Source: Sphaerodactylus townsendi (Eukaryota). Taken from it: a stretch of 64,000 bases of DNA. The DNA lies in contig NC_059437.1 in NCBI RefSeq assembly GCF_021028975.2, positions 32,116,001 through 32,180,000 on the forward strand, written 5' to 3'. How positions within the stretch are numbered: position 1 is the stretch's first letter; each line of letters begins with the position of its first letter. The notes beneath the pieces were generated by a model. It was not told where the DNA came from. It saw only the letters and a program-made list of their open reading frames with translations, and did not search any database. The position numbers and the translations under genes were made by a program. Positions 15,501 to 21,500 of the stretch are shown here, one piece after another.

Positions 15501-18500
15501 ATCTGGTGTAGAGAGAGAGACCCCAGCATCTTCTTCCCAAACCATATGCTCCCATTTGGCTGGGCCATGGCGCCTGCAAGCTGCTAATGCAGCAGGTTTC
15601 TTTCTAAGGTCCAGTGCCCTCCTCCTCCAACCAACCTCCACGCTGGCCCAAAATGACAGCCGCTTTTACCATGAAGCAGGTTCAGCAGGCAGATGCACCC
15701 TGTAAACCACCACTCACCGTGTTGGTCTCTGGTTTTGGTTGGGTGGAAGAGGGCTGTTTTGGCTCTGGGGTCTGATCTGAAAGGAAATATTGCACAGATA
15801 AGGTGCTTTCTCACTTGTCACAACCTACCCAAGTCTGGAAGGCAGGAAACCCTACAGAACAGCTTTCACTTGATGCTCACGGGACAGTGAAGCTGAGGCC
15901 ACGTCCCTCACTTCTGAAGGGTGGAGCGCTGTGCCTGCACAGGCCATCCCCAGAGTTAATGCCTGACCTGTGAATGGAGAACCCTAGACAAGGAGCTTAA
16001 CATCGCTCATTTTGCAGTGGGGGGAAAATAGGTAAAAGGGTGCCCCGCCTGCCTAATGAATCTCTTCTGATCCATCCCTCAAAGTTTCAAGTAGGGAAAC
16101 ATGGCTGCTCACCTTATCCTGGTTGGAAGTGGGGGCGAGAGAGAGAAGAAAACAGAAAAAGATAATAGGATTGTCTAAGCCAAGACAGACACAAGAGCTG
16201 GAGGCATCTGTGCCTCACCCAGCCACTGCCTTGCCTTGGCCTCTCTCAGGGGGACCCACCTGACCCAATTGAAAGCTCTTCAATCAGGACTGTGTGTACC
16301 TGTGCTTGTTTTGCACAAGCTCAGCAAAAAAGAAGAAGTCTCAATTGCGAATTCAGCACTCCATGAAAAACGACCCTTACCGAAGAGTTTCAAGACTTGT
16401 ACCTAACAAACTTACACAAACCTTGTATAATTTATAGAACAGTCACAGTATTCAGCTTTTCCGCTATGGCAAAGATCTTGATTTCTAAGCACACCCGGTC
16501 ATGATGAGCTGAGAAGGTCTGAGAGTGCCACACACAGATTGCCAATTGGGGCAGAGAAGTTCTGTGAAAGGGGTGGGGGTGGGGGTGGGTTTTTTGGGGC
16601 ATGGACCAGTGCCGAACACAGCAAACACAGCTTCTTCTGAACACAATACGCCCAAGTAATTTTGGCACTTTGCTTCCCTGCCCATTTCCCAGCATGGGAC
16701 ATTGGTACCCAACAGGCTCTCTGGCAGCACCAAAGCCATCGGCAGTTGCCTTGGGTCCTAGACGCCATCTCCGTCACAACAGATCGTGCCTACTGCAGGA
16801 GCATCATCCCTTTCCTAGGTGCCTTTGGGTCTCCCATCCCAGAACTGACCTGGCCCAATACTGCTTATTTTTTTACTCTGGGGAGGGGAACAGAAGGGAG
16901 AGAGCTGGCCCTGGCATTGCAAGCCAAGCCTGGCCCTCCACACAAAACTCTCCACTGGAGAACGGAGCCACCCACAGCAGCCATATCGGAGCCTCCCTGT
17001 TAAGAATGAGAGTTACAGACAGCGCTGATACTGGCTCCTCCTGGCTGGCTGGCCCTGTGTGTCATAGAACCAGAGAGGTTAGCAATGGAGGGAGGGAAAG
17101 GAAGGCGGGGGCAATCCTGCACGGTCCCATCCAACCCACTCACGGGAGCCAGTGCAGAATCAGTCCCTAGCAGCTCTAGCAGCCCCCTTGCAGTCAAGCT
17201 CCCCGCTGCTCTGGCCGAGCCAAAGCACTGGACTACTCACTGTTCAGCAGGCTCTCAGGGCCTTTCTGGGTGTCTAAGTTAGGTTGATTCTGTTGGTTGT
17301 AAAAGCGCAGCAGACACTGTTGGTTGCAGAAGTGTTTGATTTGCCCTCGCCAGTGGATGGTTTCCAACAGCTTCCCCTGGCGCTTGCAAGCGTGGCACCG
17401 AGCTACCTAAAATCCACAACAAGAGGGACAAAGCAGACAGTCAGTCACAAAGTCCGTTGCAGAGCACAAGACACAGCCGGCTGTCAGTGTAGCATGGGAT
17501 CTCCTGGGCTATGATTCTGACTTTCTTTTTAAATAAAGAGAAAACCTACTATTTCTCTGGCAAAGAAGAGGAGTTTGAATTTATAACCCCACTTTCTCTC
17601 CTGTAAGGAGACTCAAAGGGCCTTACAATCTCCTTTCCCTCCCCCGCAAACACCCTGTGAGGTGGGTGGGGCTGAGAGAGCTCTGAAAAACTGTGACTCG
17701 CCCAAGTCTCACCCAGCTGCCATGTGTTGGAGTGTACAGGCTAATCTAGTTCCCCAGATAAGCATCCACAGCTCAAGTGGGAGAGGGGGGAATCAAACCC
17801 AGTTCTCCAGATTAGAGTGCACCTGCTCTTAATCACTATGCCACTGCTTGCGAAAGGTAAAGCAGTTTCTGCTAAAGGCCTCCCAACCTGAGAATGGAAG
17901 AGTGGATTCCAGGGGTCAGATCCTAACCTCCTCCTCCTCTTCTCTACATGCCTCAACTCTACTGCATTAGTCACCCCACTAGCAGATCTAGCACGACCTC
18001 AAGCAAACTGCTGCCACTTCTCAGTGAGATGGAAAGCAGTTGGCAAGTACGACTGTTCAACAGATCAAATGCCACAAACATGACTTGCATAATTTAATCC
18101 AACTTCCCACGACATAGAGTTTTAATTGTCAGGAAACTAAGGTCCCAATGAAGGAGATGAGAATTCCTGCCGGAGGACTGGGATGCAGAGACTCAGCAAG
18201 GCCGAGCGTGACATCACAGCAATGCTAGACAGTACACACCCCCCATCCAACTGACCCAGATGGAGATGGAGCTGCCCACCAACTGACCTTGAAGTACCAA
18301 AGCAGGTATTTGCTTTTGCAGTCTTCACTGCAAAAGTCCCAGGTGCTGCCCTCAAGCTGCTCGGTGACTGCACGCTGGCACGTCTGGGAGCAATAGGTGC
18401 AGGTGATGCAACAGAGGCCCAGGTTTTTGGTGAAATCCTGTTTATAAAGAAGCACACACCCTGCGGAGAAATAACATGGGTGAAACCTTCCCGGGGGGGC

Positions 18501-21500
18501 ACCACGGGCCCCCTCGCCACAGCAGGGAACCCAGAGCCAAACAGCTTTGAGGAACAGCAGAGCACAGCAACGCAAAGGCAGCCTGAAAGCAACAATCCTG
18601 CACTGGCCCCCGAGGTGGGACTGAAACCGGGAGGGACTCGCCATCGCTCACCTCTCTGGTTCTAAGCAGAGTTTACTCCGAACGACCTTCGGCCCAAGCC
18701 CACCACATGCAACGACCTGCAAGGCACAGCAAGGCCAGCTGGTGCTGGGGGCAGGCTGCAGCCGTGCAAGGTGGCCTCCTTGGGCACTCTCCGGGCAGCC
18801 AGGCCCCAGCAAGACAGACCTCCACCCTCTTCTGGCCCCAAGTCTTCCCTCTGCTGCCAGGCCCCTTCCTCCTCCTCTCTGCCACAGGATTCGGTTCAGC
18901 CCAGGCCCGGCTCGTGCTCTCCCCAGGTACCTTCGCTGCAAAAGTTCTTCTCCACCCCCGAGAAGCGGATCTTTTCATGCAGCAGCTTCTCCTGCTTGCA
19001 ATATTCGCACTGGGACACCACCCCACGCAGCCGTTTGAAGTCCTCACAGCAGTCTCTGCAGCAAAACTGGTAGATCTTGTCCTGCCAGGGTGGGAGTGGG
19101 ACGGGAGGAAGGGGCACGCTCAGCCAACTGATCACACCAGTTTGGGTCTCCAGCAGCAGAGAAGCAGGCCCCTGCCGAGCCAACTGGATTCCTACTGTCT
19201 TTCTGAGAACCAGTGGCAGACTTGGCACCCGTTTCCCGGAGCAAAACCTGCCCAACCCTCCTTAACTCAGCAAGAGCAGGCTTGAGGGGAAGCTACCTCC
19301 TGAGTTATCTAAACAGCCCAGAAATTGTTCCCTTCCTCCCTTCCAGACAATTCCTTTGCCTGCTGTCTGCAACCCCCTCACCTGCCAGTCCAGGATCTCA
19401 GGCTTCCCAGTGAAGAGGTTGTGGCAGGAATGGCAGGTCAAGTGGATCCCACCTTCTGGACTGGTGCGCTGCATTTTGAGGGAAGGGGAAGGGGAGAAAG
19501 ATTCAGAAGGGGACACTAGATCACCTGTGCCCACTGTGCCCAGAATGGAGCTGCCTGCCCAGCCTCCTATTTGCTCTTAGAATGCCCAAGTTTCCAGACT
19601 CACCCCCACCAAAGTGTTCTTGCCTGCTTTCCGAAGCACACATCATACACTGTTCCCAGGTTCAGTTCCATCCTGACATGAAGCTTCCCCAGAACCCCCT
19701 TCCTATGCCGACAACCCACTGGCTGTAGACACAAGTCCTCCATCTCCCTTTCCCCACCACTGAGGGTTGACTGAATCCCGTTCCGTAAGGAGGGGAACAG
19801 TAATCGGCAGGCACCCCACACAGGTTCTTCCCAGGGGACGTCCAGCTGCTGCAGCTGCTCCTGGGAGGGAACAGGGTTTGGCCGTGGACTATGGAAGTAA
19901 AAGACCAACAGTCTGCGAGTAGAATAAATTATGCAAATCACACAAATGTTATTTGACTGATTTATTGGATAGCAGACACAAACTCTCTTCGGCATCAGAA
20001 GTAGAAACAGTTTATTTGAGACAATGACCCCCACAATAGATCAGACATATATAAATTTATAATAAGCTAAAAATTAGTTAAGCGCGCCTCCCCCTCCCCA
20101 CCCCTCTCTGGCCATTGGCTGAGCTGCCGTGATGTCAGAGAGTTCACAAACACAGGGAGAAGATTTGGTCATAGAATGCTGTTTGGGGCAGGATGGGGGT
20201 GGGGAAATTTACTCAAGGACAGGAGGGGCAGGTTAAAAAAGGATATGTGGTAACTGGAAGAAAGGGCAGCAAAGGGCTGGGAAGGTGGGAAACCCAACAC
20301 CGAGGAGAGAAGGGGCTCTTAGTTAACAAATGGTGCCAACAGACAAGATGAGCTGGATTCTGTATACAGGGCATGGAGCTCTGTCTTAAGTGCAAGAATG
20401 CAGATCAAGGCGAGAGAGGACTCGTATGACCCTGGGAGAACATGGGCAGCTTTGAAGAGTGATATGGCCCCTCCCTTTCGCCATCTTCTTTAGTCTCAGA
20501 GCAGGCACAGCCTTCACCTTCCAAAGCTTTTCTCAGCAAACCATGAAAGCTAGAAGCCTTTTTTTAAGATTATGAAAGCAGATACTTTCAGGAGTCTGAT
20601 GGATGCACCAGATCGCAGCCATGCAGAGAACCCACGTTCTTGGGTCTGGTCCCATCACTGTGACATTGGCAGAGCCTCCTTATGTACCTGGAATTTGGTC
20701 CAGCAGCTGGGGCTGCAGAACTCGTACACCACCTGCTCATTCTTGTTGTAGTAGCAGGGCTCAGACAGGCTCTTCCGGCAGAGGTTGCAAGGCCGAGGGG
20801 GTCCTGGGGAGACAGGAAAGGCAGGAAGAGAGGCCAGGCTGGTGAGGGAGGACATGAGGGACTCCTCCCCCAGGCTCGACACAAGATCTAACCTAGCAGA
20901 GAAGAGGACCAGACCTGATTCTAAGGCACACTGCTTGAAATTTTGCTTGGAAGTTGTCTCCACCCAAGCCAATACCCAGTCAGCAGCTCCCATCAACTCA
21001 GTCTTCCAGATCTAGGTCCCTACGTGAGCAACCCTGATAAGCCAGAATCACGCACCCAGAAGCCTGACTCATCTGTCAACTAATGGAGCAAGTCACCCAA
21101 GTACAAGAGGCTTTAACCTGAGATACACATGCATAGGTAGTGGTCCAGAGGCCTCCTGCTCTTCTTCACGTGCAGGACACCCTTACCCCACCAGACAATG
21201 ACAAAGTAGGTAGCTAAACTGCAGAAGACAGTTAGCTCTTACCTGTCAGGCCTGCTTGTTTGACTTTGTAGGAAGTGGTGCAACAGATGGAACAGAAGAG
21301 GCCCATCTTGCCATTCCGGTCCTTGTGGGACAACATGTCAAAGTTCTTGCAGAGCGTCTTGCACCACATGCATGGATATACCCGGGTATTTTTCTGCAAA
21401 GGGAAAAGTGTAAAGGGGTTGCCAGAGAAGCACAGCCACACCCCTGGGGCCTCTTTTCATCCATTATTTTGCTCTGAACCTGCAAGAACTTCAGCTCCTC

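What the first reader, a model, noticed from the sequence alone, without database searches (positions are those of the whole stretch)
18652..18716. 65-nt poison cassette exon hidden in ZMYM3 between zinc-finger exons 10 and 11
Seen (minus strand): ccttgctgtgccttgcag|GTCGTTGCATGTGG...AGAACCAGAGAG|gtgagc, with near-consensus splice sites at both ends. After the phase-1 end of exon 10 it reads G-R-C-M-W-W-A-W-A-E-G-R-S-E-TAA (stop 18673-75), and 65 nt also shifts the frame. It contains UGCAUG and retains several CpGs. Inference: an NMD switch controlling dosage of a chromatin regulator linked to X-linked neurodevelopmental disease. From memory, unverified: human ZMYM3 (ZNF261) contains an ultraconserved element, and it is worth testing whether it maps here.
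Basis: partly seen in the sequence, partly recalled or inferred. Interest (0 to 1): 0.7.

Follow-up and report, generated by a model that had tools for sequence, protein, structure and literature searches.

The report
Conserved decoy exon in reptile ZMYM3
A lizard gene for the chromatin scaffold ZMYM3 hides an exon-shaped 65-base element, recognisable also in snakes, inside an intron that is often left unspliced; it was not seen spliced in, and likely acts as a decoy at a splice site that also chooses between the full protein and a shorter form predicted to lose most of its co-repressor binding.

Summary
The sequence is as described: strong splice-like ends, TAA at 18675-73, frameshift. It is more than chance. 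It is the best pseudo-exon in 15.5 kb of ZMYM3 introns, the intron is as conserved as the exons in four related species, and both ends reappear in snakes (56 nt, same frameshift, no internal stop).

Inclusion was not seen: 0 of 12 junction reads from the upstream donor, and no protein or contig joins it. What is seen is retention of this intron (related lizards, a duck-like transcript, viper annotation) and an in-frame skip from the same weak donor to exon 13 (6 of 12 reads; 104 of 119 reptile/bird proteins fetched, 0 of 66 mammalian). The skip breaks zinc finger 8 and removes fingers 9-10; fingers 8/9 bind LSD1-CoREST in human.

Best reading: a decoy exon in a retained intron, poison only when leaky. 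A regulated poison exon in unsampled tissue remains open. The human ultraconserved-element idea fails here: the mammalian intron is short, variable and unlike this one.

The parts
18931..19081 (-). ZMYM3 coding exon 10; ends inside MYM finger 8, one codon before its last Cys
   Evidence: (spliced reads)
18925..18933 (-). weak exon-10 donor AAG|gtacct, second weakest of 23; 'gtac' start kept in reptiles and birds, a stronger start inferred in mammals
18461..18930 (-). intron 10 (470 nt, 63% GC), conserved at exon level among related species and read through unspliced in RNA contigs
18896..18898 (-). first in-frame stop (TGA) if intron 10 is retained; 752-aa product
18717..18736 (-). acceptor-like tract of the cassette; no clear branch point
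18652..18716 (-). 65-nt cryptic cassette (candidate decoy/poison exon); 56-nt counterpart inferred in viper
   Evidence: inclusion not observed
18706..18711 (-). TGCATG (RBFOX-type motif, name recalled); matching Cys-Met codon pair in snake read-throughs
18673..18675 (-). TAA, in frame on inclusion; no stop at this place in the snake read-throughs
18646..18654 (-). cassette donor GAG|gtgagc, same 9-mer as the exon-5 donor; E-V-S-D-G signature kept in snakes
18288..18460 (-). coding exon 11 (last Cys of finger 8, finger 9); skipped with exon 12 in the short isoform
17241..17406 (-). coding exon 12 (finger 10)
15777..17240 (-). intron 12; also read through in RNA contigs of two species, less conserved
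15718..15776 (-). coding exon 13; alternative acceptor for the exon-10 donor (in-frame loss of 113 aa)

Best explanation
The 65-nt segment is a conserved, exon-shaped element in ZMYM3 intron 10, an intron that is often left unspliced behind a weak donor, and it likely works mainly as a decoy exon that holds the intron back and would be poison only when occasionally spliced in. Shown: the splice-like ends, their conservation to snakes, retention of the intron, and two spliced fates of the weak donor (exon 11, full-length 1445 aa; exon 13, 1332 aa). Inferred: U1 and U2AF engage the cassette's donor, which is stronger than the real exon-10 donor, and its acceptor, competing with cross-intron pairing. 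This stalls the exon 10-11 join, so the transcript is either detained or resolved by skipping exons 11-12. Predicted result: less ZMYM3 carrying intact fingers 8-10, of which 8 and 9 bind LSD1-CoREST-HDAC2 in human.
For: Intron 10 differs from the window at 17/366, 32/524, 8/201 and 29/419 bases in four other organisms. That is no different from exons (p 0.11-0.61) and below intron 12 (11-13%; p 2e-5, 3e-5, 0.012). Unbroken contigs cross both cassette borders in 3 of 4 runs and end 28-29 nt inside the exons, beside spliced contigs. Raw intron reads occur in 2 of 3 runs, none on the cassette; the exon-10 donor goes to exon 11 in 6 reads and to exon 13 in 6. A duck-like ORF has upstream exons spliced and reads into intron 10 (P0193), and two viper models retain it. 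The viper read-through aligns at score 83 against 39.5+/-6.3 for shuffles (max 66 of 300), while the intron-9 control gives 33 against 30.2+/-5.1. Cassette donor 8.2 bits against 3.8 for the exon-10 donor. In viper the intron part upstream of the cassette is only 69 nt, tight for real inclusion. Finger mapping. Decoy model: PMC6097662 passages.
Against: No functional test was made, and neither decoy activity nor inclusion was observed. The decoy class is reported mostly for introns over 1 kb; this one is 470 nt (294 in viper), and short GC-rich introns with weak donors are retained without decoys (general knowledge). Intron 12 is also read through, so retention may simply flank the skippable block. 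Conservation covers most of the intron, not only the cassette, and base-level differences inside the cassette were not visible (40 of 212 rows shown). The junction sample is small (upper 95% bound on inclusion 22%) and NMD would hide inclusion. 54 of 69 joint rows were not shown.
Confidence: 0.45

Rival explanations
1. It is a regulated poison cassette: included in some tissues or stages, degraded by NMD, and so invisible in ordinary poly(A) RNA.
For: Sites score like true ones. Both ends and the 3n+2 length are kept in snakes despite a 9-nt length change (one chance in three for the same remainder). Inclusion satisfies the NMD rule. Mouse Zmym3 is listed as up after Upf1 knock-down, at gene level only (PMC8168582 Table S8C). 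Two duck-like ORFs join exon 10 to another stop-carrying segment (P0106, P0198).
Against: 0 of 12 junction reads and zero depth on the cassette in 3 raw runs. No exon 10-cassette join among 240 proteins fetched, none in the search with the cassette frame or the shifted exon-11 frame (0 of 7 hits). No clear branch point; 69-nt upstream intron in viper.
Confidence: 0.3
2. The intron is conserved as a block of enhancer/silencer sites that control skipping of exons 11-12; the AG and GT are incidental, and retention follows from the weak donor and high GC.
For: Conservation spans about 340-470 nt of the intron. The skip is common in reads and in annotations. Both introns flanking the block are read through. 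The weak donor and the skip are both confined to reptiles and birds among the proteins fetched.
Against: The best-kept residues in the snake alignment sit at the two splice signatures, and a pair this strong is rare by chance.
Confidence: 0.2
3. A chance pseudo-exon with no function.
For: No inclusion seen; weaker pairs are common (24 at 6/6 bits); the stop is not conserved.
Against: Exon-level conservation in four organisms and alignment to snakes with a negative control.
Confidence: 0.05

Closest known systems
Decoy exons in retained introns: SF3B1 intron 4 (E4a-f), OGT intron 4, ARGLU1 intron 2 (PMC6097662, passages seen)
   Same: Short, conserved, non-coding cassette with a premature stop inside a retained intron; junctions rare or absent without NMD inhibition; three possible fates.
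   Different: Short intron (470 nt, against mostly over 1 kb); a single cassette; not recognisable in mammals; tied to an in-frame two-exon skip from the same donor; decoy activity untested.
Conserved poison exons of SR proteins and chromatin regulators (Lareau 2007 and Ni 2007 seen only as reference-list titles; Yan 2015 recalled, not held)
   Same: Frame-breaking, stop-carrying cassette with good splice sites in a dosage-relevant regulator.
   Different: No inclusion evidence; conservation shown only within squamates; no ultraconserved element; the stop itself is not conserved.
ZMYM3 fingers 8/9 as the LSD1-RCOR1-HDAC2 binding module (PMC6424451, passages); mouse long and short ZMYM3 isoforms, only the long binding LSD1 (PMC5520888, passages)
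   Same: RNA processing yields a ZMYM3 form predicted to lack LSD1 binding.
   Different: The short rodent proteins fetched are about 496-541 aa; the reptile/bird form is an internal in-frame deletion that keeps the C-terminal QRICH1 and DUF3504 domains.

Membership tests
Poison (AS-NMD) cassette exon | Functional-grade 3' and 5' splice sites | tested here: met
   branch point unclear
Poison (AS-NMD) cassette exon | Inclusion creates a stop more than 50-55 nt upstream of a junction | tested here: met
   755 aa, 14 junctions downstream
Poison (AS-NMD) cassette exon | Inclusion junctions in RNA | tested here: inconclusive
   0 of 12 reads, upper bound 22%; no NMD block; none among the 15 of 69 joints shown
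Poison (AS-NMD) cassette exon | Included form rises when NMD is blocked | not testable with these tools
   no such run among the 22 listed
Poison (AS-NMD) cassette exon | Conserved sites and frame disruption | tested here: met
   snakes, through peptide read-through only; not recognisable in mammals
Decoy exon in a retained intron | Host intron is retained | tested here: met
   nuclear detention and level not measured
Decoy exon in a retained intron | Conserved cryptic non-coding cassette inside it | tested here: met
Decoy exon in a retained intron | Leaky junctions to the flanking exons after NMD inhibition | not testable with these tools
   no NMD-inhibited data
Decoy exon in a retained intron | Deleting or mutating its sites lowers retention | not testable with these tools
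   needs a minigene
Decoy exon in a retained intron | Typical (not defining) intron size over 1 kb | tested here: not met
   470 nt here, 294 nt in viper (PMC6097662)
Ultraconserved element (200 bp or more identical in human, mouse and rat; definition recalled) | Near-identity of this intron among mammals and to reptiles | tested here: not met
   mammal-type introns of 186 and 230 nt, divergent among themselves; 0 of 7 match the window intron beyond shuffles (best 22 of 300); indirect, through peptides of unnamed ORFs

The most novel reading that the evidence does not exclude
One weak donor placed inside finger 8 of ZMYM3 is a three-way switch in reptiles and birds: full scaffold, an in-frame form without the LSD1-CoREST-binding fingers, or a silent retained/poisoned transcript. 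The 65-nt decoy sets the balance, and mammals lost the switch by strengthening the donor and losing the cassette.
Probability: 0.3. Interest if true: 0.65.

Novelty: new member of a known kind. Interest (0 to 1): 0.42.

Why it matters
It would add a chromatin co-repressor scaffold to the decoy/poison-exon class, in an unusually small intron that is easy to dissect. It also exposes a reptile- and bird-wide ZMYM3 isoform, present in predicted annotations but not found described in my 10 literature searches, that is predicted to lose most LSD1-CoREST binding while keeping the C-terminus. That is directly testable in chicken or lizard cells. Relevance to the human disorder is low, since the element was not recognisable in mammals.

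Tried and rejected
No RNA holder of this organism's own sequence was listed; RNA evidence comes from a close relative (organism G, 6 differences in 900 nt, none of the 4 listed in the cassette) and four more distant organisms whose runs are guessed to be RNA. Lack of cover on intron 9 and most of intron 11 is not used as evidence, nor are contig depths used as levels. X6 showed no spliced joint among the rows shown and crosses only one border by 27 nt, so it counts for conservation only.

RNA structure: 18441-18950 folds less well than all 100 shuffles (z +2.6); Rfam gave one sub-threshold match elsewhere. Repeat origin: one match in the genome. Paralogues: ZMYM2- and ZMYM4-like genes have an intron at the same codon; the ZMYM4-like intron shows no similarity (score 23, shuffles up to 25), and the ZMYM2-like intron was located but not compared. 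The metagenome scan for host DNA gave 1 irrelevant locus. A homologue search with the cassette frame found none. A 6-nt 'microexon' first put into my gene model turned out to carry a stop and was removed.

Literature: no paper on this exon, this intron or 'uc.474' (name recalled) in searches. Three wanted papers were not held. Supplements of PMC6097662 and PMC4737145 had no ZMYM3 row; one file of each could not be searched, nor file 1 of PMC8168582.

Full report
1. The observation. The segment 18716-18652 on the minus strand has the ends, stop and frameshift described. The gene is ZMYM3 of a lizard, likely a gecko: exon 10 is 96-98% identical to named gecko proteins. My model has 24 coding exons and 1445 aa. 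Inclusion would give 755 aa and retention 752 aa, each with 14 junctions well downstream of the stop. On a matrix from the gene's own sites the cassette donor (8.2 bits) beats 10 of 23 true donors and the acceptor (10.9) beats 17 of 24. It is the only such pair in 15.5 kb of introns; 2 of 1000 intron shuffles match it (thresholds chosen after the fact). The real exon-10 donor is second weakest of 23 (3.8 bits).

2. RNA. Three raw RNA runs of a close relative (organism G) laid 71 reads on 18262-19161. The exon-10 donor joined exon 11 in 6 reads. In 6 more it joined a sequence that maps to 15776, the start of exon 13. No read covered the cassette, so inclusion is 0 of 12 (upper bound 22%). Two of the three runs had reads inside the intron (18461-18630 and about 18720-18817). 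In contigs of four other organisms, three runs show the spliced exon 10-11 joint and also unbroken contigs across both cassette borders; one spans the whole intron and ends 28-29 nt into each exon. Contigs drop rare forms, and only 15 of 69 joint rows were shown, so rare inclusion is not excluded. Intron 12 is also read through in two runs.

3. Conservation. Intron-10 pieces differ from the window at 4.0-6.9% of bases, like exons (3.8-4.1%) and unlike intron 12 (11.4-13.5%). Two viper models and one unnamed ORF of the same type read through intron 10 in frame. The viper peptide aligns with the window's cassette frame at both ends, A-G|R-C-M and E|V-S-D-G, far above shuffles, while the intron-9 control does not. 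The implied viper geometry is 69 + 56 + 169 nt: same 3n+2 frameshift, no internal stop, and a very short upstream intron. This is DNA inferred from peptides, not aligned DNA. An unnamed ORF starting just behind the cassette donor also matches weakly (P0225, 2 of 500 shuffles). Duck-like ORFs show retention (P0193) and a different stop-carrying segment after exon 10 (P0106, P0198) that does not match the window.

4. Mammals. Two mammal-type read-throughs give introns of 186 and 230 nt; seven such peptides differ among themselves and none matches the window intron beyond shuffles. An ultraconserved element cannot plausibly lie here. All 6 mammal-type read-throughs in the homologue lists begin G-K or G-R, implying a more consensus-like donor; all 6 reptile/bird ones begin G-T, implying 'gtac'.

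5. The skip isoform. Of 185 distinct proteins listed by two searches (120 of 391 hits and 120 of 352), 119 are reptile/bird-type: 104 join exon 10 to exon 13, 8 to exon 11, 6 read through, 1 other. Of 66 mammal-type, 60 join exon 11, 6 read through, none skips. None of 240 fetched joins exon 10 to the cassette. These are mostly predicted models and the ranking favours the short forms, so the counts show spread, not abundance. The skip removes 113 aa: viper models go from 10 to 7 intact fingers (9 to 7 Pfam zf-FCS matches). In a eutherian protein finger 8 is 635-662 and finger 9 is 678-708, inside the human fragments 620-678 and 661-719 that each bind RCOR1 and KDM1A; deleting both diminished but did not abolish binding (PMC6424451, passages). 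Intron 10 therefore cuts the co-repressor module at the last Cys of finger 8.

6. How it likely works. Shown: weak donor, conserved intron with a stronger internal donor and a good acceptor, retention, and two spliced fates. Inferred: the cassette's sites compete with cross-intron pairing, as in the decoy model (PMC6097662, passages), delaying the exon 10-11 join so that the RNA stays unspliced or skips to exon 13; rare inclusion would go to NMD. I give this 0.45, a regulated poison exon 0.30, a regulatory block with incidental sites 0.20 and chance 0.05. The first two lie on one continuum in that paper. Against the decoy reading: such exons were mostly found in introns over 1 kb, and nothing functional was tested.

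7. What is known. Ten searches found no paper on this exon, intron or skip (listings only unless named here). Mouse Zmym3 is among 871 genes with PTBP1-dependent retained introns and marked as up after Upf1 knock-down, intron not named (PMC8168582, passages and one supplement row). A human granulocyte table lists five retained ZMYM3 introns (PMC5688624, supplement rows); I could not map them with tools, and by recalled exon coordinates none is this intron. PMC5520888 (passages) reports long and short mouse proteins, only the long binding LSD1. PMC2556390, PMC3212892 and bioRxiv 2024.10.30.620815 (passages) added nothing on this point. Three wanted papers were not held, and three supplement files could not be searched; they may list this event. 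The scan's earlier notes held nothing on this DNA, only like cases in other genes, seen after I had formed the decoy reading.

8. Verdict. A real, conserved element and a likely new member of the decoy/poison class, restricted so far to squamates. Its use as an exon is unproven and the human link is unsupported. The most interesting part is its position at a reptile/bird isoform switch. Interest 0.42.

Noticed in passing
window 18931 to 15776 (minus): In-frame skip of coding exons 11-12 (113 aa), seen in 6 reads and in 104 of 119 reptile/bird proteins fetched, 0 of 66 mammal-type; breaks finger 8 and removes fingers 9-10.
   Followed up: yes
window 16113-16118 (minus): Candidate 6-nt microexon GATAAG with a long pyrimidine tract and donor AAG|gtgagc in intron 12. 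It would put TAA in frame (855 aa). The region 16100-16231 aligns in another species with 11 mismatches and 5 gaps. No inclusion seen.
   Followed up: partly
window 15777-17240: Intron 12 is read through in RNA contigs of two organisms while, in one, the next intron appears spliced out; a weaker pseudo-exon pair lies at 16877-16850.
   Followed up: partly
proteins P0106 and P0198 (cluster with a member named Anas zonorhyncha): Exon 10 is joined to an unknown segment giving 21 residues and a stop: a possible bird poison exon or alternative acceptor, with no match in the window.
   Followed up: partly
proteins P0096, P0200 (Vipera latastei), P0006 and P0123: Intron 10 is open and in frame in these snake-type sequences (294 nt in viper) and in one mammal-type cluster (186 nt), so retention there would insert residues into finger 8 rather than stop translation.
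   Followed up: partly
window about 17600-17830: High-copy repeat (SINE-like) in intron 11 that draws very deep contig cover.
   Followed up: no
L005 (ZMYM4-like gene), intron after the equivalent exon: 806-nt intron at the same codon holds an 85-nt pseudo-exon pair (8.1/10.1 bits) with no sequence similarity to the ZMYM3 cassette.
   Followed up: no
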